In this document: positions 34,356-47,962 of the stretch, piece after piece
Layout: every line of letters begins with the position of its first letter
Numbering within the stretch: the first letter of the stretch is position 1
Assembly (NCBI GenBank): GCA_965262815.1
Contig: OZ253560.1
Span: 2,547,287 to 2,611,286 of the forward strand
DNA length: 64,000 nucleotides
Origin: a bacterium
Lineage (GTDB): Bacteria; JAAXHH01
Direction of reading: 5' to 3'
Position numbers and translations under genes: made by a program
Notes under the pieces: model-generated
What the model was told of the DNA's origin: nothing
Database searches by the model: none
What the model saw: only the letters and a program-made list of their open reading frames with translations

Positions 34356-34455
34356 ACGAAGAACACGATCCAGTTGAAATGACGACATATAGTCTTTTCG
34401 AACTACTAAAATTATAAATAATACATCTCGTAATGAAATATAAATTATTAATACT

Positions 34456-35754
34456 ATGATACCTAGTACGATTCGTAATAAGTTAAACCTGAGTATCGCT
34501 CTGCCAGGGAGCAAATCCGTTACGCTCAGAAACCTGGTACTCGCCGCGCTGGCCGAGGGAACCACCGAGATTGTGGATCCGTGCGACTGCAATGACACCC
34601 GGGAGATGGTGGAATGCCTGGGAAACCTTGGTATATCCATCAAGGCTGGTGATGACTATCGCAAGGTAACCGTGGATGGGAGGGGCGGCCGTTTCGCGAA
34701 GGGTCCCGTTACCCTCGGCCTTGGACTCAGCGGCACATCCGCACGTTTCCTTATTGCCTTATCTGCCCTGAGAAATGACGTAACCCAGCTGGATGGACGC
34801 GGCAGCCTGAACGAAAGGCCAAACCTACCCTTGCTGGATGCCATCGAACAACTGGGAGGGGAAACGGTATCTTCCGACGGTGGATGTCTGCCAGTATCTG
34901 TCAGGGGACCCGAAAAGTTCGAACGGGCGGTCACGATGAAAGGCGATGTATCGAGCCAGTTCTTCTCTGCCCTGTTGCAGATCGCGCCGATGCTGCCCGA
35001 CGGTCTTGAAATATCCGTGGACGGTGAACTCGTCAGCCGGCCGTACATCGACATTACGCTCAACGAAATGCGCAAGTTTGGCGTCCGCGTAGTGAACGAC
35101 GCGTACGGTAAATTCACTGTGGCCAGGCAGAATTACCGCCCTGGTCTCCTGACGGTGGAAGGGGATGCATCAGCTGGTTCCTACTTCGCTGCCCTGGCCC
35201 TGATTCACGGCGGGAAGGTGATCTTCGAGAACCTTGGAGCGGATACCCGGCAGGGAGATATACGGTTCCTTTCGATATGTGAAAGGCTGGGAGCCCGCAT
35301 CCAGGTGGACGAAGATAGGACCGTTATCGAAGGACCGAATGATGGCTGTGTTTTACCGCCAGGTGGTGAAATAGACTGCGGAGACATTCCAGACGCGGCG
35401 TTGACCCTTATCGCGATCGCACCGCTGATACCCGGCACTACACGGATTACGGGCATCGGCACGCTCAAGAACAAGGAATGCGACCGGATCGAATCGCCAG
35501 CCGCGGAACTGCGGAAAATCGGAGTGGACGTGACGACCGGCGGCAACTACATCGAAGTATCGGAATTACCGGCAAGTGCGCTTAACGCTTCTGATATCAT
35601 CGACATCGAAACCTATCACGACCACCGCATGGCCATGAGCTTCGCCGTGCTGGGCACCTGCCTGGGGAACCTGAACATCCTCGACCCGGACGTTGTCGGG
35701 AAAACCTATCCGCAGTTTTGGGAGGATCTGGCTAGAATCAGAATATCGAAGTAA
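34456..35754 (+). CDS. aroA: 3-phosphoshikimate 1-carboxyvinyltransferase (EPSP synthase)
   Basis: 432 aa with the LPGSKS motif and two-domain EPSPS architecture. Preceded by a ~100-bp very AT-rich stretch and visibly lower GC than the upstream genes. Confidence 0.85.
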   Translation: MIPSTIRNKLNLSIALPGSKSVTLRNLVLAALAEGTTEIVDPCDCNDTREMVECLGNLGISIKAGDDYRKVTVDGRGGRFAKGPVTLGLGLSGTSARFLIALSALRNDVTQLDGRGSLNERPNLPLLDAIEQLGGETVSSDGGCLPVSVRGPEKFERAVTMKGDVSSQFFSALLQIAPMLPDGLEISVDGELVSRPYIDITLNEMRKFGVRVVNDAYGKFTVARQNYRPGLLTVEGDASAGSYFAALALIHGGKVIFENLGADTRQGDIRFLSICERLGARIQVDEDRTVIEGPNDGCVLPPGGEIDCGDIPDAALTLIAIAPLIPGTTRITGIGTLKNKECDRIESPAAELRKIGVDVTTGGNYIEVSELPASALNASDIIDIETYHDHRMAMSFAVLGTCLGNLNILDPDVVGKTYPQFWEDLARIRISK

Positions 35755-36101
35755 GTGTGTTCTCGATCATAAACAACCAAGTTTGTTACTGCAATCACCA
35801 GTAAATTAGCGGTATTGACGATACCAAACCTAAATCCTACTGACTTGCTAGAAAGTTAAGGCATACTGTGAGTCCCACGATAAATCCAAATGACTTGGTG
35901 CAATGCACATTGCACGATGGTACCGTCAGAGAGGCATTTCAGTGACTAAACAGATCGTTAGAAAAGCAACTAAAAGTGGATTCTTACCCCTCAACACTTG
36001 ATCTCACTTGATAGTAACAAGTGGATCGTCGTTGAAGGTGCATTGATTGACGAATTCCTAACTCAAGGAATCAGGGAAGCATTTATAGAATGTATTCCTT
36101 A

Positions 36102-39100
36102 TTATGATCCTCCTAGCGACTGATATACCCATCCGGGACGTCTTAGCAAGTTGAAAGTATCCAATGTTGTCGGGTTAAAGTCACGACAACTTGCTATCAC
36201 TTCCTCTAGCAATTCTACGGGATGTCTTAAATTCCATAGGGGATGGACCACTAAGACCAGCTTGTTGCCTACTTCCAAACCCGGAAGTAATCCGAAGTCA
36301 CGTGGCCTCGCGGAGAAAGACGTACAAAATGTATCCCGGAGCCTAGCAGCGTGTTCGCACCATCCTTCCAAATCAGGAACGGCGAATACCCCGTTTACAC
36401 CACAGTCAAAGCTGTCAGAATGTAGGCAACGCAACAATGAAACTCCGAGTCTCCAATCCAGCAATCCGTGATACCCCATGTTCCGGTAGTTCCTAAGGCA
36501 ATTGTAGCAAGATGAATCGCAGACCGACCTGTGATCACGGTGTAAGACTGAACCAGCAAAGCTGTCGGACTCGGCATCGGAATTCGTTACCAATGCCAGC
36601 AAGTCTTCCCAATTATCGTAAATGTAATTCGTGAATCCAGCGCCGTTGGCCAAGTGATCGCTAATTACAATTTCGCCTACTTTTGTCCCGTCTCCTAACT
36701 CGACCTGCCTCACGTTACTAATGTCAAACTCGTCGGGATCAATGTCGAGTTCTTCGGCGGCAATAGCTTTGAGAATGAAAGCTGCGGAATAGTAAGCGGC
36801 TTTTATTCCGACTGCTCCTACCGGATCCATCCAAAGACCCGGACGGACTGACTCAGGCCTGATGCGCAACACATCTGTGGATTTAGGCGAAACAATAGCA
36901 ATGGATTCAGTCTCGGTGGTCGTTGTGAAGTTTAGTTGGTCGGCCTCTTGGAACCGATTATCTATCCATTGATTCTCCAACCTTCGCCCGGTACTCCCGC
37001 GTTGTGCTGTACCAACCGCGCCTTTAAACAGGCGTCCTAGCCTATCGTTTACCCGGTACACTCGTCCCGATTTGGAAAAAGAGATCGCGCTATTGGTTCC
37101 AACCGATGCCATACAAGGAACCCCGTCCGATTCAGCGACCGTAGAGGCCCCGGTAGGTAGAAACTCGTCGTCCTCAACAGCATCACTCCCCGGACCAAGG
37201 CTTGCACGGAAAGCCAACGGTACCGCGAATTGGAATGTTCGAAAAGCTGGGTCATTCTCGTTTCCACATCCGCACTTGGGACAGGACTCATCTTGCGGGT
37301 TGTCGTCATACGTAGCAGTATAATGGCACTGTCCGCAACTTGACATCCATCTCCGTGGGGACAATGGATCGTTTGTACTTGTGCACCATCGGTTCTCCCT
37401 TCTTAACAGAGGAGCGGTGAAACCAATTGCCTGGTATACACGCTTATCTTTAGTTCTCTGGGAGCCGGGCGCGAACTCTGTAATGGCTAGGTCAAGGTCC
37501 CTGTGGGTTGTAAGGGCGTCTGTGCTACGCAACCCATGGTAAAATAGCCTGACACGAGAAGGCATACCGTACATGGGTAGAACTGCGTATTCAGCTAACC
37601 TTTCTGCCAAGCCGTCGCCTGTGATTTCAGGATTGGCACACGCTTCCCCAATTTTGATGCAAAGTTCATTCCTCGCATAATTTACAATGTCGCTTTTTCG
37701 AATAGTGCCCGCCACACCTGTACACAAGGCATCTGCGATTGACGTGACATCCGTCGCAGAAGAAAGCCAATTTTTGACTGATTCTCTCCTGTATTGGTCA
37801 TCAATCCAACCGGCTGTCATCCCGAACTCGCCATGACTATCAGGTGGACGCGGGCTTTCCCACCAGGGAACTCCGGCGGCATGGAATGCTCGTCGTAAGC
37901 ATTCCTTTGCCATAAGCCTCTGTGCAATGTCTAGACGCCCCATCGATAGGAAAGGTACTGGCGGAGGATCGCCCGTAATTCGCTCGGGATGGTGATAGTA
38001 GAATTCGTCATGGCTTCGGCCCCGACAGATGGTGAGCACAGTCGCGAAGGGTTGTCCCCGCCGACCAGCGCGTCCTGATCGTTGCTGATAGTTAAAGCGC
38101 ATTGGTGGCATATTCCCTTGTACGACAGCTTGGAGACTGCCAATGTCAACGCCAACCTCCATAGTCGTGGTCACACTGAGCATATCGATTGCATCTACTT
38201 CTCGCACAAGCGGGTGGTACGGATCGTTATTAAGATCTACAGTAATGTCGCGGAACAGACGTTGTCGCTCTGGCTGATTATCCGTTTGGGCAGTAAGTTC
38301 CTCGGCATGCAGGCGTATCGGTTGCCGTAACTGCACCGCTTCCTTCGCGTAGTAGTTCTGCAAGTGCAGGTCACAACAAGTAGTGTTCGGATCACCCGGC
38401 AGTATATCCTGGCAGAATTGGCTAGTACAGATTCCTGGATTATATAAATGGGGGCGTCGGCATCTCGTGCAACGCCATACTGGATCCGTAGGGAGCGCGA
38501 CACGGACCAGCAGTCGGCGCGGATTGATTTTGAAATGCGTATGGCCACCGATAAAGCAAATTGCATCCCGTACTGTTTCCAATAAAGCGTCTTCACCAAC
38601 ACCGTGTACGTTCGCGCACTTTCTGACATAATTACGAATACCAGCCCGAGCGGTTGTCCAGTTCGGCCAGTCATCAATGGGGTAGGCGCCTGGATCTACT
38701 TGTGGGTAGCGATACAAATCCCCTAGCATTCTAATCGTGCCGTTGAGAATGTCCACAAGTTGGCCTTTAGCCAAGTCACATTCACCAGCTTTTTGCTCCA
38801 TTACCGAGTCCGGTAGGTCCGACTTGGCATAACCGAGGCCTGCCGACTCGAACCCGAAATACAGTCTAGAAAACAACACAGAGCAGATTTCACTGGTTAC
38901 TTTAGCACGCAGTTTCTCGCGTCCCCTTGTACTTCCAGATGGTGACAGATCAGGTTTCCAGCCACCGCCAGGACGAGAGAAATCGAACAGGGTCGTCCAT
39001 TTTTGCCAAGCATCATCATATTTAAACTCTTGAAACAGTACGTTTTGACCAGCTGGATTAACGCCGAGAGTCTTCAAACGTTGGATTAATGCCCCAGTTC

Positions 39101-41846
39101 CTCGTTCGGTGTTTTCGTCCTCAAAAAGTAAGCGCAGATGGACAGTGCGGCTCGCACCACGATCAGCTACTAGGGCTAGTTTCGCACGGGCATCTGCAAT
39201 GGTTTGTTCTGCCACCTCGCGCAATGCTTCAGGAAGGCTCGCCAGTGCGTTGCTATCGACAGTTTCTTGTTGTAAAAGTTCGCGAAAGTCGGATAGCAGA
39301 ACCTGTTGTATATTGGTGAGTTCCAAAGCTTCGCGGGAGGTAGGAGACCCAGTAGCTCGAAGTTTGGCTAACAAGGCTGGCTCCTCTATCGTAAATCTTC
39401 GCAATTCATCGTACATGGCCTCCCGCACTAAGTCCGAATAGTGCGACCTTTCTATCCCATTGGCGAGTTCTGCCGCATCCTGTCGACTGTCGGAGAAGAC
39501 GACTAGTTTCTTAGCATCTTCTGGCAGGAAATAGAACATTTCCTTGGAAAGAATCTGAGTGATACGACCAAAACCAGTGCGAAATCCCCGGATTGGAGAC
39601 TTTCGATACTGGCGGAATCTGTAATTCGCCGCGCACAACGGGCAAGTTGCGGGTAGGGCTCCTATTTCGCTCTCAGGCAAATTCGGAACTACATATGCGT
39701 AACCACGCACAGTACCCGTGGTGCCTAGCTTGACTTGCCCTGTAGCTGGGTCAAGGCTAGCAGCCATCCACCGAGCTTGGACTGTACTGCTACTGTTAAT
39801 GGGCTGTGGCCACTGACGTGAATCTGGGTCTAATTGCTGTCCACCGGATGGCCAGAAAACCCCGAAATCCCGGTAGGTTCGTCTGTCGACAAAGCGGGCT
39901 GATTGCCGATCTGGCAAACCCTCTATATCAGCATCAGTGATTAGAAGCTCCCAGCCACGATTTGCATCCAGTTCGTTCCTGCTACCTCCGAACATCGTCG
40001 TACCGCAAACTTCGCAGTAGAGTAGTTCCAATACCCGGTGGGATTCATCCAGATTATCGCACAGGATACGCGAGTTTTGAAAAAGTTTTCCGGAGGTACG
40101 ACCACCTCCCATTTCGGCAGAACTACAACCACATCCAGGTTGAGTGCAAGCCCAGAGGCCTTCGATATTTTTGAAGAACCAGTGTAGTCTGAATCTGGGC
40201 ATTCGTTCGCTGGCCCCACACAGCTGACGGGCGATTAGAAGGCCGCGGGTAGCCGACCGCACAACATCGTCTTCACAGTCGGTGCCGAACAAACGTTGTC
40301 CGAATTCACTCAAGCGAGTTGCTCTGGTTACGCCGTCTCTGGAACAAGCCGCCAGCATACGCGCACTCATCTGCAAATTTTCCACCTCCAGGCAATCTTC
40401 CAGTTTCCAGTCGCCTCCTTCCTGCACTTCGCCTGTTGAACTTAGAAATGCTGTCGCTACAGCTTTTGCATCTGGCTCCTTGTCCGCTGCGGTTTCTAGT
40501 TCTGCAATAGCAACAAAAGGCTCTACCTGAAGCTTACTCGACGTATCCCCGCCTGAAGTGTCCTCTGGATTGCCTGGAATTACCTGTAAACTAGTCCATT
40601 GGGAGCCAAAGAACTCGGATAGGTATCGTAGGCTATCGTCATCGTTTGGCTCCAACGACGCACTGGAACCAATAATGCGAAGTTTTGGGCTGTCTGGGTA
40701 GAGACCTAAGCGGAGCAGGAGTAACTTTAAGAGGTACGCGACTTCGGTTCCTGCTGTGCCGCGATGGAGATGTAGTTCGTCAATGATGAGATGGAAAACG
40801 CTGCCGTCTTTTTCCAGCCATTGCTTCGTTTTTTCGAAAATGCCGCTGTCTGCGTCTCGCATTAGCATCATACTGAGCATGCTAAAGTTCGTGACCAAGA
40901 TATCTGGTGGGTGGTCTTGCATATCCCATCGGCAGCGCATTTCTGCACCGTCCAGTCGTGGGAAGAAGTAACGGGCTTCCGTTTTCCCTGTATCGAAAAC
41001 GTGTTTTTCTGCCGCTATTGCGGCACCTTCGGCTTCCTTCAAGAGTGTTTTCAATCGCTCAATTCTCTGGCGGTCTGGTCTCTGTACGCCATTGGCGTTT
41101 GGTTGTAATAGCTCATGACCAGCTACTGGTGCATCTGAGTTATATCGTCCGAAGTAGAATCGATTTCCGTCGCGATTTCGGTCGAACCACTCCCGGACTC
41201 CAGGCGAGTCTAAGGCGGAGCGCAAACGGCTTAGCTGGTCTTCTACCAAAGCATTCATAGGATATACAATCAAACCGCGAATCGCGGCATCCCGGTTCTC
41301 ATTGCCACGCTGAGGGATTCTCAGACTTCTTTGAGCTATGTTTCCTGCAGGCCAACATTTATTGCGCCAGGCCTCATTACGCCACCAATCGTCTTGATGC
41401 GCCAGCCTTGGTTGCGGCTTGTCCCAGCCAGAGGATTCTTGGCACAGGTAGGCGAATAGCGGCAATAAGAATGCCTCGGTTTTTCCTGAGCCGGTTCCGG
41501 CTGTAACGACAGCGTTTGTCCCAGAAAGCACTTTGCTTAACATTTCGGCTTGATGACTATAAAGCTCGAAGTCGCCGATCAGCCCAAGAGACGTAAGCTC
41601 TTGGAAAGCAGTAATTCCCTCCGACCCCATACTAGGCAAATCCACCGCAGATAAATCCCTGATTTTCTTTCCTGAAGTCCGATACCTTGGAATGGGTTCT
41701 ATCCACGGTTCTTGAGAAATAGTACCGGGCTCCCTTAGTAATTTCTCGCGTTCCACCTCAAGACCCGGGTACTGGGTTCCAAATGCAGTTTTCACGTAAT
41801 CGATGTAGCTGTCGCGGACCTTATCAAAAGCATTTATGAAATCCAT
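36102..41846 (-). CDS. giant split DExH helicase with C-terminal DUF1998-type zinc-finger domain (DruE-like Druantia signature protein)
   Basis: 1914 aa. Helicase motif I TAGTGSGKT (~aa 117), II IIDELH (~aa 355), III GSSAS. After a ~750-aa insertion, motif V TTTMEVGVDIG and motif VI QRSGRAGRRG (~aa 1200-1230). Cys pairs CGQCHY…CPKCGC and the C-terminal CDSSCYNCLRNY…LLDWRLG resemble the DUF1998/MrfA zinc-finger domain. The start overlaps the upstream gene by 13 nt. Confidence 0.7.
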   Translation of the reverse strand: MDFINAFDKVRDSYIDYVKTAFGTQYPGLEVEREKLLREPGTISQEPWIEPIPRYRTSGKKIRDLSAVDLPSMGSEGITAFQELTSLGLIGDFELYSHQAEMLSKVLSGTNAVVTAGTGSGKTEAFLLPLFAYLCQESSGWDKPQPRLAHQDDWWRNEAWRNKCWPAGNIAQRSLRIPQRGNENRDAAIRGLIVYPMNALVEDQLSRLRSALDSPGVREWFDRNRDGNRFYFGRYNSDAPVAGHELLQPNANGVQRPDRQRIERLKTLLKEAEGAAIAAEKHVFDTGKTEARYFFPRLDGAEMRCRWDMQDHPPDILVTNFSMLSMMLMRDADSGIFEKTKQWLEKDGSVFHLIIDELHLHRGTAGTEVAYLLKLLLLRLGLYPDSPKLRIIGSSASLEPNDDDSLRYLSEFFGSQWTSLQVIPGNPEDTSGGDTSSKLQVEPFVAIAELETAADKEPDAKAVATAFLSSTGEVQEGGDWKLEDCLEVENLQMSARMLAACSRDGVTRATRLSEFGQRLFGTDCEDDVVRSATRGLLIARQLCGASERMPRFRLHWFFKNIEGLWACTQPGCGCSSAEMGGGRTSGKLFQNSRILCDNLDESHRVLELLYCEVCGTTMFGGSRNELDANRGWELLITDADIEGLPDRQSARFVDRRTYRDFGVFWPSGGQQLDPDSRQWPQPINSSSTVQARWMAASLDPATGQVKLGTTGTVRGYAYVVPNLPESEIGALPATCPLCAANYRFRQYRKSPIRGFRTGFGRITQILSKEMFYFLPEDAKKLVVFSDSRQDAAELANGIERSHYSDLVREAMYDELRRFTIEEPALLAKLRATGSPTSREALELTNIQQVLLSDFRELLQQETVDSNALASLPEALREVAEQTIADARAKLALVADRGASRTVHLRLLFEDENTERGTGALIQRLKTLGVNPAGQNVLFQEFKYDDAWQKWTTLFDFSRPGGGWKPDLSPSGSTRGREKLRAKVTSEICSVLFSRLYFGFESAGLGYAKSDLPDSVMEQKAGECDLAKGQLVDILNGTIRMLGDLYRYPQVDPGAYPIDDWPNWTTARAGIRNYVRKCANVHGVGEDALLETVRDAICFIGGHTHFKINPRRLLVRVALPTDPVWRCTRCRRPHLYNPGICTSQFCQDILPGDPNTTCCDLHLQNYYAKEAVQLRQPIRLHAEELTAQTDNQPERQRLFRDITVDLNNDPYHPLVREVDAIDMLSVTTTMEVGVDIGSLQAVVQGNMPPMRFNYQQRSGRAGRRGQPFATVLTICRGRSHDEFYYHHPERITGDPPPVPFLSMGRLDIAQRLMAKECLRRAFHAAGVPWWESPRPPDSHGEFGMTAGWIDDQYRRESVKNWLSSATDVTSIADALCTGVAGTIRKSDIVNYARNELCIKIGEACANPEITGDGLAERLAEYAVLPMYGMPSRVRLFYHGLRSTDALTTHRDLDLAITEFAPGSQRTKDKRVYQAIGFTAPLLRRENRWCTSTNDPLSPRRWMSSCGQCHYTATYDDNPQDESCPKCGCGNENDPAFRTFQFAVPLAFRASLGPGSDAVEDDEFLPTGASTVAESDGVPCMASVGTNSAISFSKSGRVYRVNDRLGRLFKGAVGTAQRGSTGRRLENQWIDNRFQEADQLNFTTTTETESIAIVSPKSTDVLRIRPESVRPGLWMDPVGAVGIKAAYYSAAFILKAIAAEELDIDPDEFDISNVRQVELGDGTKVGEIVISDHLANGAGFTNYIYDNWEDLLALVTNSDAESDSFAGSVLHRDHRSVCDSSCYNCLRNYRNMGYHGLLDWRLGVSLLRCLHSDSFDCGVNGVFAVPDLEGWCEHAARLRDTFCTSFSARPRDFGLLPGLEVGNKLVLVVHPLWNLRHPVELLEEVIASCRDFNPTTLDTFNLLRRPGWVYQSLGGS

Positions 41847-42832
41847 CGCTTTCCTTTCGCTTCGATGGGTTGTTGATTAAGTTTACTCGCTACCTCATTA
41901 AAGACACTAGGTGGTACGTCGTTATACACATAGGAACGTTGTGCTTCATTAGATGGCACTAGCCCTAGCACAGTTGAGCAATGTCCTCTGCACAGTCCAA
42001 AGGCTCTTGAGAATAAAGTAGGCAGAGGAGCACCGTATGGAACGCTAGCTCTCTTGATAGCCATATCGTATTGCAATACCCGGTGCGATGATAGGGCGAG
42101 GACAGCGTAACGTCCCCAGTCCAGTTCAACTTCTGCGGACTCACGATTCCGCCATAGGCGATAGTACCAGATGGATGTTACTGGGTTTTGGTACCTGCTT
42201 AACCGTAATTTTGAATCTATCCTGCTATTAGGTAGAAACTGCAATCTTTCCGTATCAAAATCCTGGCGACGCCAGTTCATCTCTGCTTCGTTTGACCACA
42301 CCAGACCTCGGCAATACTCTTGGAGTGAAGCAGACACTCGCGCCAATGAACGGGCAGGTGGGAAGTCGATAAAGCGGAGGTTAACACTGGCGGCAACATT
42401 ATGGATTTGAATGGAACTATCGGCACATAGTTCTATGCGTGTTGGCACGTATGGACACGATGCTAAATGTGGCCCCACGATGGTCTCAAAGCCACCTATA
42501 GTTGCTGCCTGTTGCAGGTTCTCAACACTCGCTGGAGACCTGGCTCCGCACAAAACTGCTCTGGCTACACCGCGACCTGGAAGTGCGGCTAGCACCGGGG
42601 GAGCGACGACGACCTTGATTTCATCCGAATCAAATTTCATGTCGATGTGACCGAGACAACTCAATGTGCGGAGAGCTTGCCACCGTGCGCTAGCGACAGG
42701 TTCATCAAATTTGGACTGCCCGTCTAATACCCCTCTCCTATGTACCTCCTCAAACCATCGCTTGACAATGGACCAAGGAACTTTACGCTTAGCAGAGAGT
42801 GCGAATAAGAAGATGTCACCACTGTTATACAC
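41834..42832 (-). CDS. hypothetical protein, DruG-like position in Druantia-type operon
   Basis: 332 aa with no recognisable motif. GTG start (verified: gtg tat aac agt ggt gac = MYNSGD) overlaps the upstream stop by 8 nt, and the stop overlaps the druE-like start, indicating translational coupling. Confidence 0.55.
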   Translation of the reverse strand: MYNSGDIFLFALSAKRKVPWSIVKRWFEEVHRRGVLDGQSKFDEPVASARWQALRTLSCLGHIDMKFDSDEIKVVVAPPVLAALPGRGVARAVLCGARSPASVENLQQAATIGGFETIVGPHLASCPYVPTRIELCADSSIQIHNVAASVNLRFIDFPPARSLARVSASLQEYCRGLVWSNEAEMNWRRQDFDTERLQFLPNSRIDSKLRLSRYQNPVTSIWYYRLWRNRESAEVELDWGRYAVLALSSHRVLQYDMAIKRASVPYGAPLPTLFSRAFGLCRGHCSTVLGLVPSNEAQRSYVYNDVPPSVFNEVASKLNQQPIEAKGKRWIS

Positions 42833-44873
42833 GTCTGGACAACTCTTGTATCTGATTCCACAACGAGCGTTCGTCCGGTTGTTCTGGCTGTAAGATGCGC
42901 TTGCGCCAGTGCCAAGTAACTTTCTTCCAGTCTTTCAATTTCCGACGTGTTGGGGTATCCAACGATCCAAGCGATATTGCCCCCAGCATTTCGCTAACAA
43001 AAACTGCTTTCCATTTCTTAGGTCGGATTTTTGTAATCACCCATGTTGGAATCCAATCGTTGGGGAAAGGCTCAGATGGCCAAGCAATGATTTGTCCGGG
43101 GTGCTGCCCGACCAGAAAACAACGCATCCTACACAGTTCGTATTCTAAATCCTCGAATACCTCCGCGGCTGAAGTTGTCGTTTCGACGATCTGGCCCTTG
43201 ATATATGCACCAGAGACAGATGTTTTATCACTATCAAATTGTGAGCTGATGGCGGAGGAATCTACGAAAATTTCGGGTTCTCCCGTAGGCAGGCTGTAGT
43301 CGCTTGTTAAAAATAGTGACTGCCGACACAGAACTAATTGGTCGGACCGCGCCTCTATGGTGATCCGGGACCCATTTGGAAGGTCACTTGGTAGAGTAAA
43401 AATACCGGCGGTAGCAGGGGATGATAGTAATACTTGATTGCAATAAACTTCAGTAGTCGGTGCCCCTCCGATTAACCGTACTGATGGAGGTGCGAAGAAA
43501 AAAAAGTTATTCCCATTGCCGCTACGGATTCCGCCTACCAACAGGAGTCGCAACCCCGATTGAAATGTCAGAATCGGAAACTCGTTTTTAACTGCCTCAT
43601 CGTCTATAGCGGTCTCGACGCTAGCAAATCGCCATGAATTCGGTAAACCCTGCACTATATCGAGACCATGAAACTCCCTGCATTGCGTAGTTGCCCATCG
43701 TTGCAAACGTGGCCAAGCATCCTCGGGGTAACTCAGGTAAAAAGGTTGTCCCAAGGGTAGAGTGGGTGTGTCAACAAGATCACTAATCCCTTCTGCCATA
43801 CCGCTGATGAATATCCTGACCGGATAGCCCTTAAGCCTCAACAGGTAATTGGGAGATTTCGACCGCATCGTTTTGCTGATACGCCAATCAAGCATGGATG
43901 CGTCAAAATGCTCTCCTGTGTTGTTGTTTTTTATTGGCAACGACCACCCATTCACGTCCTCATCGGCATGGAGTACATGATCTAGAGTAAGACCTGCTTC
44001 AGGAAACTCGTGATTTAACCTGCACCTGATAGATGATTTGGCAATTCCTGTAACCTGATCCAGCTCGATGCAAATCCGCAGTCCGCCGAGAGTTTGAGCC
44101 GATTGACCAAGGTTTATTTCTGACCCTGGCATCGTCCCATCCCAAGCCTCCAGTTCGTCATTGACAGCGTCAATTAACGCCCTGTGAAGTTCATCTTGAG
44201 GATTCTCCGCCATTAGGATAGTTCTGGTCCTCATAAGTCGTCTTGCGATATTACTACGCAACGCCATAGCGATTTCATCATCCGGGTGACTTGATGCCGG
44301 GTCTAAACCTGCTTTAAAGAAGACCCGTGGCAACACCTGTCTGTCTTGCTCTACTAGTATCGCTTGTGAAAGTGGATAACCTATGTGGACATGTCCGCCT
44401 ATTGAACGGGATTGGAAAATGCCTAGTTTACCTTGTCGGTCGAATACTGACCAGTTCTCCAGGTCATCCCAGAGTTCCCGCATTCGGTCGAACCAGCGCG
44501 GTGGACCACTTCTACCTTCATACATTAGTTGCGTCCATAGCCTGGGATAATAGGCGTGAGGTGCGAAATCTCCTTCAGCGCCGCTAGCGAGCACGAAAAA
44601 ACACAGATAGCCAACGTAGGGCGGGATATCTTGATTCCGGATCCTCCACCCAAGGAATTCATGGTAAGCTCGTTTACATATATGTTTTCCGTTCAGGTAT
44701 GGCGCCGATGGTTGCCCAGCGACTGCAGTACGGAAAGAACCAGCTTCCGGGATATCCCGACTTATCTCGTCGATAAGATCCTGGTTGACGTAAAGGTGTA
44801 CGTTATATCCCTCCATGTCGGGATTAAAGAACCAGGTAGCTAACTTATTGTTCCATTGACTATAGGCGTTCAT
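42825..44873 (-). CDS. hypothetical protein, DruF-like position in Druantia-type operon
   Basis: 682 aa with no recognisable motif. ATG at 44873..44871 verified. 27 nt downstream of the relic end of the glycosylase gene. Confidence 0.55.
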   Translation of the reverse strand: MNAYSQWNNKLATWFFNPDMEGYNVHLYVNQDLIDEISRDIPEAGSFRTAVAGQPSAPYLNGKHICKRAYHEFLGWRIRNQDIPPYVGYLCFFVLASGAEGDFAPHAYYPRLWTQLMYEGRSGPPRWFDRMRELWDDLENWSVFDRQGKLGIFQSRSIGGHVHIGYPLSQAILVEQDRQVLPRVFFKAGLDPASSHPDDEIAMALRSNIARRLMRTRTILMAENPQDELHRALIDAVNDELEAWDGTMPGSEINLGQSAQTLGGLRICIELDQVTGIAKSSIRCRLNHEFPEAGLTLDHVLHADEDVNGWSLPIKNNNTGEHFDASMLDWRISKTMRSKSPNYLLRLKGYPVRIFISGMAEGISDLVDTPTLPLGQPFYLSYPEDAWPRLQRWATTQCREFHGLDIVQGLPNSWRFASVETAIDDEAVKNEFPILTFQSGLRLLLVGGIRSGNGNNFFFFAPPSVRLIGGAPTTEVYCNQVLLSSPATAGIFTLPSDLPNGSRITIEARSDQLVLCRQSLFLTSDYSLPTGEPEIFVDSSAISSQFDSDKTSVSGAYIKGQIVETTTSAAEVFEDLEYELCRMRCFLVGQHPGQIIAWPSEPFPNDWIPTWVITKIRPKKWKAVFVSEMLGAISLGSLDTPTRRKLKDWKKVTWHWRKRILQPEQPDERSLWNQIQELSRRV

Positions 44874-44899
44874 GGTCGGTCATCCCGAATGTGTTGTAT

Positions 44900-45019
44900 T
44901 CATACAATCGGCCCTTGTTTGGCATACACACACTTTGCTGCAATGGGGCAATCGATACATAGAGGTGTCCGTGATTTGCAGATAAGGGCTACAAAGTCAA
45001 GCAATCCGTAATTATGCTC
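44900..45019 (-). pseudogene. 3' fragment of the IS-split HhH-GPD glycosylase gene ([4Fe-4S] loop)
   Basis: Reading the minus strand from the TSD copy at 45021 gives EHNYGLLDFVALICKSRTPLCIDCPIAAKCVYAKQGPIV*. C-X6-C-X2-C-X5-C is the EndoIII/MutY/Mig Fe-S cluster loop, in frame with the upstream part once the IS and one TSD copy are removed. Confidence 0.8.
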
Positions 45020-45062
45020 CTTGATGTTACCCCGTTTTCGTGGACGGTTTACGGTTTGGGAT

Positions 45063-45875
45063 TCAGGCAGTTTTCTTGAACCTCCTTTCGAAGTTCATGG
45101 GTGAGAGGTATCCAAGGGAAGAGTGTCTTCTCCGGGTGTTGTAGAAGCCCTCGATGTATTGGAACAGGGCGAGTCTGGCGTCGGCCCTGGTGGTAAAGCG
45201 CCTGCGATCGAGCAGTTCGCATTCCAGGCTGGCGAAGAAGCTCTCGCACAGCGCGTTGTCGTAGCAGTCGCCGACCGAACCCATTGAGGGTCTGACCCCG
45301 GCCTGTCTGCATCTTTTGCCGAAGGCCACCGAGGTGTACTGCGATCCCTGGTCGCTGTGGTGGATCACCGCGTGGGGTCTGCGCATTCCAAGGGCCATGT
45401 CGAGGGCGTCTGTGACCAGTTCGCTTCGCAGGTGGTTGGCCATGGACCAGCCGACGACGCGACGGCTGAAGGCGTCTATGACCACCGAGAGATAGAGGAA
45501 GCCCGCATGGGTAGGCACGTAAGTGATGTCGGCGACCCACAGCCGATCCCTGACAGGAGCGCTGAAGTCCCGGTTGACCAGGTCCGGCGCCTTCTTGCTT
45601 TCTTCGGATCGCCAGGTGGTGCGCACGGCTCTGCGGCGTGATACTCCACTGATAGCGGCCATGCGCATCAGGCGGGCAACGCGTTTTCGTCCTGCGCGTA
45701 TGCCCGACGCGCGCAGTTCGGCATGGATGCGCGGCGCGCCGTAGGTACCGTAGGAGCGTTGATGGATCGAGCGGATCCTGCTAAGAAGCATAGCATCCTC
45801 TCTGGTCCTCTTGGAGACCACCCGCCTGAGCCAGACGTAGTAGCCGCTGGGGGAGACATCCAGCAGACCGCACAT
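45063..45875 (-). CDS. IS3-family transposase OrfB (DDE integrase core)
   Basis: …YPIRRMCGLLDVSPSGYYVW…, DDE catalytic region (…HHSDQGSQYTS…) and C-terminal YNTRRRHSSLGYLSP. The frame stays open upstream in the -1 frame relative to orfA. Confidence 0.9.
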   Translation of the reverse strand: MCGLLDVSPSGYYVWLRRVVSKRTREDAMLLSRIRSIHQRSYGTYGAPRIHAELRASGIRAGRKRVARLMRMAAISGVSRRRAVRTTWRSEESKKAPDLVNRDFSAPVRDRLWVADITYVPTHAGFLYLSVVIDAFSRRVVGWSMANHLRSELVTDALDMALGMRRPHAVIHHSDQGSQYTSVAFGKRCRQAGVRPSMGSVGDCYDNALCESFFASLECELLDRRRFTTRADARLALFQYIEGFYNTRRRHSSLGYLSPMNFERRFKKTA

Positions 45876-45907
45876 CCGGCGAATAGGATAGGAGGCCTGG
45901 CTTGCCT

Positions 45908-46219
45908 TTATGAACGAGAAGACTCGGGTGGGGTCTCGGTCTCCCGGGCGAACCAGGCCGCGGCTTTTGCCAGGATCTCTCGATCCATCCTGAGCTGTCT
46001 GTTCTCACGGCGCAGACGACGCAGTTCGGCCCGTTCTTCGGTTCTCAGGCCGTCTTCACGCCTGCCTTGGTCCAGGTCGTCCTGTTTGACCCAGTTGCGG
46101 ATGGCTTGGGCGGTGGGCTCGAACTCTTTGGCCAGCGCTTCGGGACTACGGCCGGCGCGAACGAGATCGACCATCTGCTGGCGAAAGGCCGACGGATAGG
46201 GGGCACGGGATCTGGGCAT
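45908..46219 (-). CDS. IS3-family transposase OrfA (HTH)
   Basis: 103 aa with a helix-turn-helix and leucine-zipper-like RRLRRENRQLRMDREILAKAAAWFA. orfB is in the -1 frame. A-rich slippery stretch CAAAAG around 45964-45970. Confidence 0.85.
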   Translation of the reverse strand: MPRSRAPYPSAFRQQMVDLVRAGRSPEALAKEFEPTAQAIRNWVKQDDLDQGRREDGLRTEERAELRRLRRENRQLRMDREILAKAAAWFARETETPPESSRS

Positions 46220-46231
46220 GTCACGCTCCTT

Positions 46232-46849
46232 TCAAACACAAGAAGTTACATGTCCACTAAACCGGGTCAACTCCACCTTATAGTACTTTTTTGGTAGTAG
46301 TGCCCTTGCGAAGTCCCAGATGATCTCAGCTCGCCTTATATCCGTTGGTGGTTTTAATCCTGTAAGCCGAGAGATTGTACGCACTATACTAAGGTCCACC
46401 ACTGGTACACGCTGTCCAAAGGCAAAGCTAGCGACAGCATGCGCAGTATAGATACCTACGTACGGTAATTTGACTAAATCATCGAGTTGAGTTGGCAGCT
46501 CTCTGGTTTGGGTTAATGACGAAGCGACGTCGAGAAGAGCTCTGACTCTTTGTTTTCCAAACCCTAATACCGCAATCATTTCGAACAGTTCGTCCGGATC
46601 AGCGTTAGACAACTTGCCAGCATCACTGTACTGGCCTATCAGCATCGGCCACACCATGGCAACTTTGTCAGCATGGGTCTGCTTAAGCAAGATTTCCGCT
46701 ATTAGGATTCCGAAAGGGCTGTTTTTTTCAGCTCTCCAAGGGAATGGCCTACCTAAAGTGGAGTACATTTGGACAAAGAAATCTTCTGCTATACCCAGCC
46801 TTGATGGATCGTAAACTGCCGCTTCATTCTGATTGGTCATGTGGATCAT
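46232..46849 (-). pseudogene. HhH-GPD superfamily DNA glycosylase (Mig/EndoIII-like), 3' end truncated by the IS3 insertion
   Basis: HhH-GPD motif LPYVGIYTAHAVASFAFGQRVPVVDLSIVRTISRLTG, with Tyr at the EndoIII Lys120 position and the catalytic Asp retained. The last 13 codons plus the stop (46275..46232) are IS-derived. The native Fe-S loop is displaced to 44900-45019. Confidence 0.75.
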
Positions 46850-46876
46850 CTAGAAAATGCCCCGTTTATCCGTATG

Positions 46877-47962
46877 CTATGCGCGCACAGAAACAAACCC
46901 AAAAGCTTCTACTATGGTGTTTGCGATCCCCTCAGCAAGTGGTGGTGGCACAGCGTCAGAAACCAAACGGACTTGTTCTGTAAATGTTCCCTCTAGCTGG
47001 TACGAATGTGTGAAGCCTTGAAGCAACATGGCTTCATAGACTGACAGACGCCTATGACAGTTAGGATGGACATGAACTTCGTTATGCCCGTATGCAACGG
47101 TGTAGCTGGGAGCATCCCATGACAGGACCTTGAAACTCAGACCATTGCTGCTACCTGCCAACAGACTACCGTTTGTAAATCTCGGGGACCGTGGAACCAT
47201 CGCGACATGGTTAGGATGATGCGGAATGTTTTTTGGCTCGAGCTTCTTTGCACAAAACGTAGGTTCAGGAAGGTTCTTAATAGCATTCTCAATCGCAGGG
47301 GGCGGATGACAATTCCCATCTAGTAGTCGAAGTTCAGTTTCCGGATGACGATTTCTATTTACCCCAACAGCGATCAGCCTCTTGCGATGCTGCGGCACAC
47401 CAAATGTCCCAGCATCCAGAATATTACTCATAACTTCGAACCCGGCTTGCCTAACTTCTTCCTTGAATTCACAAAAAGCTGTCTTGTGCTTAACGTGAAT
47501 GAGGCCAGGTACGTTTTCGAATACGAAGAAACCGATATCATAACGCTTTGCAAACGCGTTAATGATGCTGGCGTAACTGTCCAGCAATTTGCGTCTAGGA
47601 TCGTTTTCAGCTTGGTGGACATTAGATGAAGAAAAGGCTTGGCACGGTGGTCCTCCGATTATCCCTATAGGTTCCAGACCTTCAGCACAGTCTTCCCACA
47701 AATCTAGGATGGTCGTTGGCTCTACCGCAGCCAGATCAATAGAGCTGACCATGGTATTGGGGTGGTTACGCTTATAGGTTGCGATGGCAGCACGGTCAAT
47801 ATCGATTGCTAGAACTGGATGGAAACCTACCTTTTCAAAACCATGATCTAGCCCTCCTGCGCCACAGAACAGACTCATTACGGGCCAGCGGCCAACGGAT
47901 TTGGGAGAATTAGCGGGTTTTATCGAGCTCTCGGCGTAGTCCAAGAGATTCTCCTTCGTCAT
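46877..47962 (-). CDS. DNA (cytosine-5)-methyltransferase (druM-like)
   Basis: Motif I FCGAGG, motif IV GGPPCQAFS, motif VI ENVPGL and motif VIII QHRKRLIAVG. Confidence 0.9.
   Translation of the reverse strand: MTKENLLDYAESSIKPANSPKSVGRWPVMSLFCGAGGLDHGFEKVGFHPVLAIDIDRAAIATYKRNHPNTMVSSIDLAAVEPTTILDLWEDCAEGLEPIGIIGGPPCQAFSSSNVHQAENDPRRKLLDSYASIINAFAKRYDIGFFVFENVPGLIHVKHKTAFCEFKEEVRQAGFEVMSNILDAGTFGVPQHRKRLIAVGVNRNRHPETELRLLDGNCHPPPAIENAIKNLPEPTFCAKKLEPKNIPHHPNHVAMVPRSPRFTNGSLLAGSSNGLSFKVLSWDAPSYTVAYGHNEVHVHPNCHRRLSVYEAMLLQGFTHSYQLEGTFTEQVRLVSDAVPPPLAEGIANTIVEAFGFVSVRA

What the first reader, a model, noticed from the sequence alone, without database searches (positions are those of the whole stretch)
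36102..41846. Unusual architecture of the 1914-aa helicase: RecA1 and RecA2 separated by ~750 aa, multiple Cys clusters, DUF1998-like tail
Motifs I-III (aa ~117-395) and motifs V-VI (aa ~1200-1230) are separated by a very long insert containing several Cys pairs (CTQPGCGC, CEVCG, CPLCAANY, CTRCRRPH…CTSQFC). The last ~150 aa (CDSSCYNCLRNY…LLDWRLG) resemble the MrfA/YprA zinc-binding DUF1998 domain. Domain boundaries and the function of the insert are unknown.
Basis: partly seen in the sequence, partly recalled or inferred. Interest (0 to 1): 0.6.

Follow-up and report, generated by a model that had tools for sequence, protein, structure and literature searches.

The report
Ordinary Druantia DruE defence helicase
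The 1914-residue helicase is a standard DruE, the signature helicase of the Druantia anti-phage defence system, and its many-domain, zinc-rich layout is already described for this family, so it is ordinary.

Summary
It matches PADLOC's DruE2/DruE4 profiles end to end (1794 bits). It follows druF and druL with overlapping stop and start codons, inside a low-GC island. More than 6,400 homologues exist. A type II DruE structure is in the PDB (9wae, E=3e-220), and type III DruE cryo-EM structures were posted in 2026.

The "750-aa insert" is not one insert. RecA2 is itself interrupted. The order is: helical domain (about aa 401-548), a RecA2 strand, a zinc beta-barrel (about 561-755), the RecA2 motif IV segment (756-812), a Cap domain plus zinc ribbon (813-1150), then RecA2 motifs V and VI.

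The DUF1998-like call is right (Pfam MZB, E=7.5e-4; Foldseek top hits MrfA and DrmB). It is not the tail, because a further 110-aa domain follows it. Bell et al. 2025 published this architecture for DruE.

Side findings:
- A C5 methylase plus a T:G-repair gene accompany druF-druL-druE in 11 of 13 distinct related loci.
- In this window an IS3 element has split the glycosylase gene.
- DruL resembles the C-terminal part of long DruF proteins.

Low interest.

The parts
36102..41846 (-). druE: 1914-aa YprA/MrfA-family SF2 helicase, the signature gene of Druantia (type II/IV clade)
   Evidence: PADLOC DruE2 PDLC00014 1794 bits, DruE2 PDLC00015 1764 bits and DruE4 PDLC00051 1751 bits, all end to end. 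PDB 9wae_A E=3e-220. 6459 homologues.
41580..41846 (-). aa 1-89: N-terminal region. In published DruE and MrfA structures an N-terminal strand joins the RecA2 sheet. Followed by N-terminal helices.
   Evidence: Assigned by analogy to Bell 2025 and Hu 2026. This segment was not modelled here. Mean identity to homologues 0.63.
40647..41579 (-). aa 90-400: RecA1 with Walker A (117-123), DELH (356-359) and SAS (395-397), interrupted by two less conserved insertions (about 136-185 and 216-299)
   Evidence: Pfam DEAD covers only 97-214 of the intact protein (51.9 bits). It covers profile positions 2-161 of 167 (69.4 bits) once the two insertions are cut out in silico. Core segments are 0.74-0.83 identical to homologues, insertions 0.53-0.55.
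40203..40646 (-). aa 401-548: all-helical domain between RecA1 and RecA2 ('BrxA-like' in Bell 2025; five-helix domain in Hu 2026)
   Evidence: The AF2 model has seven helices here, with 10-residue block pLDDT of 45-87. No Pfam hit. Identity 0.42.
39582..40202 (-). aa 549-755: first RecA2 strand (FRLHWFF) followed by a zinc-binding beta-barrel. Invariant Cys 567, 572, 596, 611, 614, 735, 738, probably forming two Zn sites.
   Evidence: Invariant Cys. AF2 shows eight beta strands across aa 607-754. Matches 'beta-barrel ZBM inserted at the start of RecA2' and ZBM_L with two zinc motifs. Which Cys pair together was not determined.
39411..39581 (-). aa 756-812: RecA2 segment of helix, strand (LVVFS) and helix, carrying the motif IV-like FSDSRQ
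   Evidence: Identity 0.81, as high as the canonical motifs. K780, V782, F784, S785, D786, S787 and R788 are invariant. Aligns to type II DruE 9wae residues 801-867. AF2 secondary structure. Pairwise alignment of this segment to MrfA was not significant.
38487..39410 (-). aa 813-1120: Cap domain inserted within RecA2. It has a hypervariable helical N-part (813-900) and a conserved alpha/beta part (901-1120).
   Evidence: AF2 10-residue block pLDDT is mostly 60-94, with one dip to 44-54 at about aa 1040-1068. No PDB Foldseek match at E<=0.001. No Pfam hit. phmmer does not align aa 820-1100 to 9wae. Identity is 0.31 for 813-900 and 0.59 for 901-1120. In type III DruE the Cap binds duplex DNA and supplies the wedge.
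38397..38486 (-). aa 1121-1150: zinc ribbon CxxC...CxxxxC (Cys 1126, 1129, 1140, 1145) at the end of the Cap insertion
   Evidence: All four Cys are invariant in 117 of 117 homologues. Bell 2025 describes additional ZBMs near the C-terminus of this inserted domain.
37947..38396 (-). aa 1151-1300: remainder of RecA2 with motifs IVa, V (1226-1234) and VI (1254-1262)
   Evidence: Pfam Helicase_C hits 1219-1264. MrfA 6znp aligns to 1214-1295. Identity 0.80.
37527..37946 (-). aa 1301-1440: helical (atypical winged-helix-like) domain after RecA2
   Evidence: AF2 model 2 shows helices at residues 15-114 of the model. Position agrees with Bell 2025 and Hu 2026.
36777..37526 (-). aa 1441-1690: OB-fold and connector beta region with an inserted zinc ribbon (Cys 1504, 1507, 1522, 1525)
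   Evidence: Cys 1504, 1507 and 1522 are invariant and Cys 1525 is present in 116 of 117. The AF2 model is beta-rich here, with block pLDDT mostly 78-96. Foldseek hits MrfA and DrmB.
36435..36776 (-). aa 1691-1804: MZB / DUF1998 zinc-binding domain (CDSSCYNC 1776-1783, LLDWRLG 1795-1801)
   Evidence: Pfam PF09369 MZB E=7.5e-4, 20.6 bits against a cut-off of 24.2, profile positions 4-80 of 80. Cys 1776 and 1783 are invariant; position 1780 is Cys or Gly in about equal numbers.
36105..36434 (-). aa 1805-1914: C-terminal alpha/beta domain, possibly the 'inactivated Vsr-like' domain reported for type I/II DruE
   Evidence: AF2 pLDDT is about 83-95 over most of the domain. The only hhalign hit to a Vsr protein falls on the Vsr active-site strand, with Gly at the catalytic Asp position, but E=0.26 is not significant.
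41834..42832 (-). druL (332 aa). Its stop overlaps the druE start by 13 nt.
   Evidence: PADLOC DruL4 3.9e-60. It also matches the C-terminal part of long DruF2 profiles (PDLC00016 positions 769-1028 of 1030, E=1.8e-7).
42825..44873 (-). druF (682 aa). Overlaps the druL start by 8 nt.
   Evidence: PADLOC DruF4 1.4e-156 and DruF2 1.4e-136. No Pfam, NCBIfam or PDB match.
45026..46276 (-). IS3-family insertion sequence (orfA 45908-46219, orfB 45063-45875). Boundaries are approximate.
   Evidence: Pfam HTH_Tnp_1 and rve on the called genes. Flanked by the two halves of the glycosylase gene. Imperfect terminal repeats read by eye at 45030-45045 and 46252-46266.
46232..46849 (-). 5' part of an HhH-GPD (MutY/Nth-like) glycosylase gene, interrupted by the IS. 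Its 3' part, encoding the 4-Cys loop, lies at 44912-45025.
   Evidence: Pfam HhH-GPD 5e-12. NCBIfam mutY 1.1e-26, below cut-off. Residues 1-191 and 190-227 of the L002 orthologue match the two sides of the IS.
46877..47962 (-). C5 cytosine DNA methyltransferase, DruM-like
   Evidence: Pfam DNA_methylase 2.5e-52. PADLOC DruM2 4.6e-74 and MTase_II 1e-70. Next to druF-druL-druE in 11 of 13 distinct related loci.

Best explanation
The ORF is druE, the large YprA/MrfA-family SF2 helicase that defines Druantia anti-phage systems. Here it belongs to the type II/IV clade and is the last gene of a druF-druL-druE operon.

Its length comes from accessory domains grafted onto an MrfA-like core. The core is RecA1, RecA2, a helical domain, then OB, connector and DUF1998. 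The grafts are:
- two small insertions in RecA1;
- a helical domain between RecA1 and RecA2;
- a two-site zinc beta-barrel inserted after the first RecA2 strand;
- a roughly 340-aa Cap domain plus zinc ribbon inserted inside RecA2;
- a zinc ribbon in the OB region;
- a small C-terminal alpha/beta domain.

Shown here: family membership, domain order, conservation of the Cys clusters and helicase motifs, and operon context.

Inferred from the type III DruE cryo-EM and biochemistry: the protein loads on single-stranded DNA at a 3' overhang or fork and translocates 3' to 5' through the ring formed by the RecA domains and the OB-connector-DUF1998 canopy. The Cap and zinc beta-barrel grip the duplex ahead, and the Cap supplies the strand-separating wedge. 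The Cys clusters are structural zinc sites that rigidify small DNA- or partner-binding modules.

Further inference: this DruE has no recognisable active nuclease, so DruF and DruL would supply sensing or effector functions. The neighbouring C5 methylase would mark host DNA as self. The HhH-GPD (or Vsr) gene would repair T:G mismatches caused by 5-methylcytosine deamination.

The confidence of 0.9 is for the identification as DruE with the family's canonical architecture. The transferred mechanism deserves about 0.5.
For: - End-to-end PADLOC DruE2 and DruE4 hits of 1751-1794 bits. DruF4 (1.4e-156) and DruL4 (3.9e-60) lie directly upstream on the same strand, with overlapping stop and start codons.
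- PDB chain 9wae_A at E=3e-220. Its first 495 aa score best on DruE2 (766 bits), so it is a type II DruE. Type III DruE 9tu7_Y at 9.3e-30 and MrfA 6znp at 5.7e-10.
- Walker A, DELH, SAS and motifs V and VI are intact and invariant or nearly so in homologues.
- Cutting out the proposed insertions in silico gives one collinear alignment to MrfA residues 55-420 at E=2.3e-21, against 5.7e-10 for the intact protein. The Pfam DEAD hit lengthens to profile positions 2-161 of 167.
- Segments assigned to the RecA core are 0.74-0.83 identical across 117 homologues. Inserted domains are 0.31-0.65 identical.
- The C-terminal AF2 model (pLDDT 75) hits MrfA and DrmB first. Pfam MZB E=7.5e-4.
- Published architecture and mechanism: Bell 2025 and Hu 2026.
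- The methylase and a T:G-repair gene adjoin druF-druL-druE in 11 of 13 distinct related loci.
- The genes sit in a low-GC island, 0.49-0.54 against about 0.60 for the flanks.
Against: - No experiment exists for type IV, or for this clade. All mechanistic steps are transferred from type III DruE, which shares only the core clearly (105.6 bits) and has a different partner (DruH) and PLD domains.
- The two 2026 preprints disagree on the activating substrate and on whether type III DruE is a nuclease. Hu reports a 3' overhang and PLD domains that lack the catalytic motif and are dispensable for defence. Loeff reports a 5' overhang after DruH processing and a helicase-nuclease.
- The middle-region AF2 model is only moderate (pLDDT 66, pTM 0.59) and its RecA2 C-terminal half is poorly predicted. 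Domain boundaries are therefore good to about 10-20 residues at best.
- The motif IV assignment (FSDSRQ) is not supported by a significant pairwise alignment to MrfA.
- The Vsr-like reading of the last domain rests on an insignificant hhalign hit plus the literature.
- The IS3 insertion between the methylase and druF may have altered expression, so the system may not be functional in this genome.
Confidence: 0.9

Rival explanations
1. It is a housekeeping MrfA/YprA-type DNA-repair helicase that has merely grown extra domains, not an immune protein.
For: The core is collinear with MrfA once the insertions are removed (E=2.3e-21). A DUF1998/MZB domain is present. A DNA glycosylase gene lies nearby.
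Against: The DruE profile match is end to end at about 1800 bits, against 40 bits to MrfA. The operon contains DruF and DruL. It sits in a low-GC island with an IS. Related loci are flanked by other mobile or defence genes such as AbiEii, GmrSD, PIN and integrases. No MrfB-like exonuclease partner appears among the six neighbouring genes scanned.
Confidence: 0.03
2. It belongs to a sister YprA-clade system (DISARM DrmA/DrmB fusion, Dpd DpdJ, or ARMADA ArmC) rather than Druantia.
For: There are weak PADLOC hits to DpdJ (57 bits), DrmA (31 bits), BrxHI/BrxHII (51 bits) and SngC (64 bits). Bell 2025 shows that ARMADA and Druantia helicases share the helical, beta-barrel and inserted domains.
Against: Those hits cover only the helicase motifs and score 25-60 times lower than DruE. 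The neighbours match only Druantia DruF and DruL profiles and show no PLD, SNF2 or 7-deazaguanine-pathway domains.
Confidence: 0.03
3. It is a helicase-nuclease in its own right, like the type III DruE described by Loeff et al., with the C-terminal domain or one of the Cys-rich inserts acting as the nuclease.
For: Some DruE and ARMADA helicases carry active C-terminal Vsr or PLD nucleases. The C-terminal 110-aa domain is confidently folded and its HPLW motif is conserved.
Against: There is no PLD, Vsr or other nuclease Pfam hit, even at E<=10, on the isolated segments. The only Vsr alignment places Gly at the catalytic Asp position and is not significant. Bell 2025 predicts the type I/II C-terminal Vsr domain to be inactivated. 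Foldseek finds no nuclease fold for the middle region.
Confidence: 0.08
4. The locus is a decaying, non-functional remnant. The IS3 insertion has broken the operon, so the helicase is on its way to becoming a pseudogene.
For: The IS splits the glycosylase gene and separates the methylase from druF-druL-druE.
Against: druF, druL and druE are full-length, keep their overlapping stop and start codons, and retain every invariant motif and Cys. An identical protein occurs on two contigs. The IS could equally provide an outward promoter.
Confidence: 0.15

Closest known systems
Druantia type IV DruE (PADLOC DruE4; system DruF-DruL-DruE; Payne et al. 2021, PMC8565338)
   Same: End-to-end profile match (1751 bits). 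The same three genes occur in the same order and are translationally coupled. No DruG is present.
   Different: PADLOC defined type IV as lacking DruM. Here, and in 11 of 13 distinct related loci, a DruM-like C5 methylase and a T:G-repair gene sit beside the three genes.
Druantia type II DruE, including the solved structure PDB 9wae (1970-aa 'Helicase')
   Same: This is the best PADLOC profile (DruE2, 1794 bits). 9wae aligns over aa 2-819 and 1101-1904 at E=3e-220. The FSDSRQ segment, the Cys clusters and the DUF1998 region are shared. A cytosine methylase is present, as in type II.
   Different: There is no DruG. DruF is short (682 aa) with a separate DruL, rather than the long form (about 1010-1030 aa). 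The Cap region aa 820-1100 is too diverged for phmmer to align. No paper describing 9wae was found in the library.
Type III DruE (E. coli and P. aeruginosa; PDB 9tu7; Hu et al. 2026, Loeff et al. 2026)
   Same: The overall plan is the same: N-terminal region, RecA1, helical domain, large zinc module, RecA2 with Cap insertion, helical domain, then OB-connector-zinc module. The helicase motifs are shared, as is an F[ST]DSRQ-like segment (FSDSRQ here, FTDSRQ in 9tu7).
   Different: Only the core aligns (105.6 bits). Type III has two C-terminal PLD-like domains and partners with DruH. This protein has a 110-aa C-terminal domain and partners with DruF and DruL. Type III does not methylate the host genome.
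MrfA/YprA (Bacillus subtilis DUF1998 helicase, PDB 6znp) and DISARM DrmA-DrmB (7s9v)
   Same: They share the SF2 DExH core and the OB-connector-DUF1998 canopy. These are the first Foldseek hits for the C-terminal model. The core is collinear once the insertions are removed.
   Different: MrfA is 751 aa and lacks all the inserted domains. In DISARM the canopy is a separate protein. Their partner proteins and biology (repair, or DISARM restriction) differ.

Membership tests
DruE (Druantia signature helicase) | Full-length similarity to DruE family profiles | tested here: met
   PADLOC DruE2 PDLC00014: protein residues 2-1911 against profile positions 3-1923 of 1928, 1794 bits. DruE4: 1751 bits.
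DruE (Druantia signature helicase) | YprA/MrfA-type SF2 DExH core with intact ATPase motifs | tested here: met
   Motif positions. Pfam DEAD and Helicase_C. MrfA alignment at E=2.3e-21 after excising the insertions.
DruE (Druantia signature helicase) | C-terminal OB-connector-DUF1998 (MZB) zinc module | tested here: met
   Foldseek MrfA 8.7e-6 and DrmB 4e-4. Pfam MZB E=7.5e-4, below the gathering score. Cys 1776 and 1783 are invariant.
DruE (Druantia signature helicase) | Encoded next to Druantia accessory genes | tested here: met
   DruF4 at 1.4e-156 and DruL4 at 3.9e-60 lie immediately upstream on the same strand. The arrangement is conserved in 13 distinct related loci.
DruE (Druantia signature helicase) | Confers anti-phage defence | not testable with these tools
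   No experiment was possible. No published test of a type IV system was found in the library.
Druantia type IV (PADLOC definition) | DruE, DruF and DruL present; DruG absent | tested here: met
   None of the six neighbouring proteins scanned matched DruG.
Druantia type IV (PADLOC definition) | DruM (cytosine methylase) absent | tested here: not met
   A C5 methylase at 46877-47962 hits DruM2 at 4.6e-74 and is syntenic in relatives. It equally matches generic type II methylases (1e-70), so whether it belongs functionally to the system is inferred from synteny.
Druantia type II (Doron 2018: DruM, DruF, DruG, DruE) | DruG present | tested here: not met
   No DruG hit among the six neighbouring proteins scanned. 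DruL occupies the position before DruE.
Type III DruE helicase-nuclease | Two C-terminal PLD-like domains and a DruH partner | tested here: not met
   Only 110 aa follow the DUF1998 domain. No PLD hit. None of the six neighbouring proteins scanned matched DruH.
MrfA/YprA repair helicase | Compact protein of about 750 aa, without inserted domains | tested here: not met
   The protein is 1914 aa with about 1100 aa of extra domains. MrfA similarity is limited to the core.

The most novel reading that the evidence does not exclude
The functional unit around this helicase may be a five-gene, methylation-linked module rather than the three-gene 'type IV Druantia'. The five genes would be a C5 methylase, a T:G-mismatch repair enzyme (HhH-GPD glycosylase or Vsr), DruF, DruL and DruE. 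On this reading, DruL is simply the split-off C-terminal domain of long DruF proteins. Types II and IV would then be one methylation-dependent lineage that differs only in DruG and in a gene fission. Self versus non-self discrimination would rest on 5-methylcytosine. The hypervariable helical part of the Cap domain (aa 813-900) would be the partner- or target-specificity element.
Probability: 0.4. Interest if true: 0.35.

Novelty: already known. Interest (0 to 1): 0.15.

Why it matters
For the finding as written, it matters little. The "unusual" helicase is a textbook DruE. Its domain plan has been published, and a close relative is already in the PDB. The useful outcome is a correct annotation of the locus (druM-like methylase, glycosylase, druF, druL, druE) and a corrected domain map.

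The side observations could help tidy the classification of Druantia types II and IV. They also point to cytosine methylation as the self-marker in this untested clade. They are incremental and need experiments.

Tried and rejected
1. Foldseek of the middle-region AF2 model (aa 380-1310) against the PDB found nothing at E<=0.001. That library stops at 8 April 2026 and evidently lacks 9wae and 9tu7. The model is only moderate, so this is weak evidence that the fold has no known relative.
3. Pfam scans of seven isolated segments at E<=10 gave only the MZB hit. There was no BrxA, MarR, Vsr or nuclease signal.
4. A pairwise alignment of aa 755-812 to the motif IV region of MrfA scored 24, against a shuffle mean of 21 with SD 4, so it is not significant. 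The phmmer single-stretch alignment misplaces this segment.
5. hhalign of the DruE profile against a Vsr protein from a related locus gave E=0.26. It is suggestive in position only.
6. No paper mentioning 9wae was found. A search for DruF plus DruE found only the PADLOC paper and unrelated text.
7. DruF and DruL have no PDB, Pfam or NCBIfam relatives.
8. The repeat finder reported no inverted repeats for the IS. Its imperfect ends were read by eye, and no clear target-site duplication was identified.
Full report
**Observation**

The window contains an uninterrupted 1914-codon ORF at 36102-41846 on the minus strand.
- Walker A GTGSGKT at aa 117-123, DELH at 356-359 and SAS at 395-397.
- Motif V TTTMEVGVD at 1226-1234 and motif VI QQRSGRAGR at 1254-1262.
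- Cys clusters at 567-574, 611-615, 735-742, 1126-1133, 1140-1145 and 1776-1783.
- LLDWRLG at 1795-1801.

One more conserved cluster was missed: CGQCH at 1504-1508 and CPKCGC at 1522-1527. These are not chance features. In 117 full-length homologues (at least 55% identical), Cys 567, 572, 596, 611, 614, 735, 738, 1126, 1129, 1140, 1145, 1274, 1504, 1507, 1522, 1776 and 1783 are invariant, and Cys 1525 is present in 116 of 117. Position 1780 is Cys or Gly in about equal numbers.

**What it is**

PADLOC profiles for DruE, the signature helicase of Druantia anti-phage systems, match the protein from residue 2 to 1911. Scores are 1794 and 1764 bits for the two DruE2 profiles and 1751 bits for DruE4. 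Type I (592 bits) and type III (297 bits) profiles match less well. DpdJ, DrmA, BrxH and Cas3 profiles touch only the helicase motifs.

The two genes immediately upstream on the same strand overlap their neighbours by 8 and 13 nt:
- DruF (42825-44873): DruF4 E=1.4e-156.
- DruL (41834-42832): DruL4 E=3.9e-60.

Pfam sees only DEAD (aa 97-214) and Helicase_C (aa 1219-1264), which is why the protein looked strange to a reader without tools. The genes lie in a low-GC island, 0.49-0.54 against about 0.60 for the flanks.

The protein collection holds at least 6459 homologues at E<=1e-10, and an identical, unnamed copy. Relatives in one-per-species genomes come from Chloroflexota (Dehalococcoidia, Caldilineaceae, Anaerolineales), Acidobacteriaceae and Bdellovibrionales MAGs.

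**Solved structures and literature**

A sequence search of the PDB finds:
- 9wae_A, a 1970-aa 'Helicase' present in seven entries, at E=3.3e-220. It aligns to aa 2-819 and 1101-1904.
- 9tu7_Y, 2108 aa, at 9.3e-30.
- MrfA/YprA 6znp at 5.7e-10.

The first 495 residues of 9wae score best on the DruE2 profile (766 bits), so a type II DruE structure exists. I found no paper for it.

Bell et al. 2025 (PMC12458937) predicted and dissected DruE of types I to III. Their domain order is:
- an N-terminal strand, then RecA1 (with small insertions in types I and II);
- a BrxA-like helical domain;
- a beta-barrel zinc-binding module inserted at the start of RecA2;
- a second domain (their 'MarR-like') with a further zinc module, also inserted in RecA2;
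- a helical domain;
- an OB-connector-DUF1998 canopy interrupted by two small zinc modules;
- in types I and II, an inactivated Vsr-like C-terminal domain.

Hu et al. 2026 solved type III DruE by cryo-EM. They name the equivalent parts the five-helix domain, ZBM_L (two zinc motifs) and Cap, and state that the Cap has no known structural homologue. They show ATP-dependent 3'-to-5' unwinding that needs a 3' overhang or a fork. The Cap and ZBM_L grip and overtwist the duplex, and a Cap loop acts as the wedge.

Loeff et al. 2026 divide 566 DruE orthologues into four types, with type IV at 18%. They describe type III DruE as a helicase-nuclease activated after DruH processes the DNA.

**My own domain map**

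I modelled aa 380-1310 (pLDDT 66, pTM 0.59) and aa 1290-1914 (pLDDT 75, pTM 0.69) with an alignment of 28 homologues. Combining secondary structure, confidence and conservation gives:

| Residues | Assignment |
|---|---|
| about 1-89 | N-terminal region |
| 90-400 | RecA1, with less conserved insertions at about 136-185 and 216-299 |
| 401-548 | all-helical domain |
| 549-560 | conserved strand (FRLHWFF) |
| 561-755 | beta-rich zinc domain |
| 756-812 | helix, strand, helix with LVVFSDSRQ |
| 813-1120 | Cap: helical 813-900, alpha/beta 901-1120 |
| 1121-1150 | zinc ribbon |
| 1151-1300 | rest of RecA2 |
| 1301-1440 | helical domain |
| 1441-1690 | OB and connector, with a zinc ribbon |
| 1691-1804 | MZB / DUF1998 |
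| 1805-1914 | compact alpha/beta domain |

Three tests support the interleaving of core and inserts.
1. Segments assigned to the RecA core are 0.74-0.83 identical across 117 homologues. Inserted domains are 0.31-0.65 identical. The 756-812 segment (0.81) is as conserved as the classical motifs, and 813-900 is the most variable and indel-rich.
2. A 374-aa construct with the proposed insertions cut out aligns to MrfA residues 55-420 in one stretch at E=2.3e-21, against 5.7e-10 for the intact protein. The Pfam DEAD hit grows from profile positions 2-71 to 2-161 of 167, and from 51.9 to 69.4 bits.
3. The FSDSRQ segment aligns to type II DruE, and an FTDSRQ-like segment is recognisable in type III.

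A caveat applies to the third test. A direct alignment of aa 755-812 to the motif IV region of MrfA is not significant. That assignment therefore rests on conservation, the AF2 secondary structure and the published architecture.

**C-terminal region**

The top Foldseek hits of the C-terminal model are the two solved DUF1998 proteins, MrfA (8.7e-6, probability 1.00) and DrmB (4e-4). Pfam MZB (PF09369, formerly DUF1998) matches aa 1691-1784 over profile positions 4-80 of 80 at E=7.5e-4, just under the gathering score.

It is not the tail, however. About 110 residues follow it and fold confidently into a separate alpha/beta domain. A profile comparison with a Vsr endonuclease from a related locus gave a single hit. 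DruE 'PRDFGLLPGLEV-GNKLVLVVHP-LWN' aligned to Vsr 'RKDLPGKPDLVFPGRRKVIFVHGCFWH', with Gly at the catalytic Asp position. At E=0.26 this is only compatible with, not proof of, Bell's 'inactivated Vsr' domain.

**Middle region: known folds?**

**How it most likely works**

- Shown here: family membership, intact ATPase and helicase motifs, five or so conserved Cys clusters located in small inserted modules, and the operon context.
- Inferred from type III DruE and MrfA: a 3'-to-5' single-strand translocase threads the tracking strand through a closed ring of RecA1, RecA2 and the OB-connector-DUF1998 canopy. The Cap and zinc barrel hold the duplex, and the Cap wedges it open. The zinc sites are structural.
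- Further inferred: this DruE lacks an evident active nuclease, so DruF and DruL supply sensing or effector activity. The adjacent methylase marks self DNA. Type I Druantia has been linked to host m6A methylation. Hu et al. note that types I and II carry methyltransferase modules, and that type III does not methylate the host.

**Surroundings**

Upstream of druF lie three features:
- an IS3-family element (orfA 45908-46219, orfB 45063-45875);
- a 205-aa HhH-GPD ORF (46232-46849);
- a C5 cytosine methylase (46877-47962; Pfam 2.5e-52; DruM2 4.6e-74, although generic type II methylase profiles score similarly).

In four relatives examined gene by gene, the order is methylase, HhH-GPD, DruF, DruL, DruE with no IS. 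In one locus (L005) it is methylase, NgoMIV-like endonuclease, Vsr, DruF, DruL, DruE.

A tblastn survey of all fetched loci finds the methylase and a T:G-repair gene beside druF-druL-druE in 11 of 13 distinct complete related loci. They lie upstream on the same strand in Chloroflexota and downstream on the opposite strand in the two Acidobacteriaceae loci. They were not detected in the two Bdellovibrionales loci. This is at odds with the PADLOC definition of type IV as lacking DruM.

In the window, the IS has split the glycosylase gene. Residues 1-191 of the orthologue match 46849-46277. Residues 190-227, which carry the four-Cys loop typical of MutY/Nth-family iron-sulphur glycosylases, match 45025-44912.

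DruL also matches the C-terminal 260 or so positions of the long DruF2 profiles (E=1.8e-7 here, and 2.6e-11 for the L010 orthologue). The 682-aa DruF also matches the N-terminal 260-290 positions of those same long profiles. This suggests that DruL is a split-off DruF domain.

**Verdict**

- This is an ordinary DruE with the family's published domain plan and a close relative in the PDB.
- The 'insert' is several domains interleaved with RecA2.
- The DUF1998 call is right, but that domain is not terminal.

Novelty: already known. Interest: low. The side observations (methylase and repair-gene linkage in 'type IV', DruL as a DruF fragment, the IS-disrupted glycosylase) are modest leads for people who classify Druantia systems.

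Noticed in passing
window 44912-46849 (IS approx. 45026-46276): An IS3-family element has inserted into the HhH-GPD glycosylase gene. The 5' part (aa 1-191 of the orthologue) lies at 46849-46277. The 3' part, encoding the four-Cys loop, lies at 45025-44912. The 205-aa ORF is therefore a truncated product, and the methylase is separated from druF-druL-druE.
   Followed up: partly
window 46232-47962; loci L002-L008, L010, L011, L015-L017: A C5 cytosine methylase plus a T:G-mismatch repair gene (HhH-GPD, or Vsr with an NgoMIV-like endonuclease in L005) accompany druF-druL-druE in 11 of 13 distinct related loci. PADLOC defines type IV Druantia as lacking DruM.
   Followed up: partly
window 41834-42832 (druL) and 42825-44873 (druF): DruL matches the C-terminal 260 or so positions of long (about 1010-1030 aa) DruF2 profiles. 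The 682-aa DruF also matches the N-terminal 260-290 positions of those same long profiles. DruL therefore looks like a fission product of long DruF rather than a new protein.
   Followed up: partly
L010 3170-6476 (also L017): The Acidobacteriaceae relatives carry three extra ORFs (436, 475 and 190 aa) between druF and druL with no PADLOC match. Their methylase and glycosylase lie downstream of druE on the opposite strand.
   Followed up: no
window aa 813-900 of DruE (39147-39410): The helical N-terminal part of the Cap domain is by far the most variable and indel-rich segment of the protein (identity 0.31, gap fraction 0.13). phmmer does not align aa 820-1100 to the type II structure 9wae. It occupies roughly the position of the dimerising four-helix 'PD' subdomain of type III DruE.
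   Followed up: no
window ~34000-50000: A low-GC island (0.49-0.54, against about 0.60 for the flanks) covers the Druantia genes and also the aroA-like EPSP synthase gene at 34456-35754.
   Followed up: no
window 36102-41846: Precomputed annotation lists a faint or weak Pfam PF27116 'YjiV_N' hit on this protein and its relatives. The local Pfam copy reported no such hit at E<=0.01.
   Followed up: no
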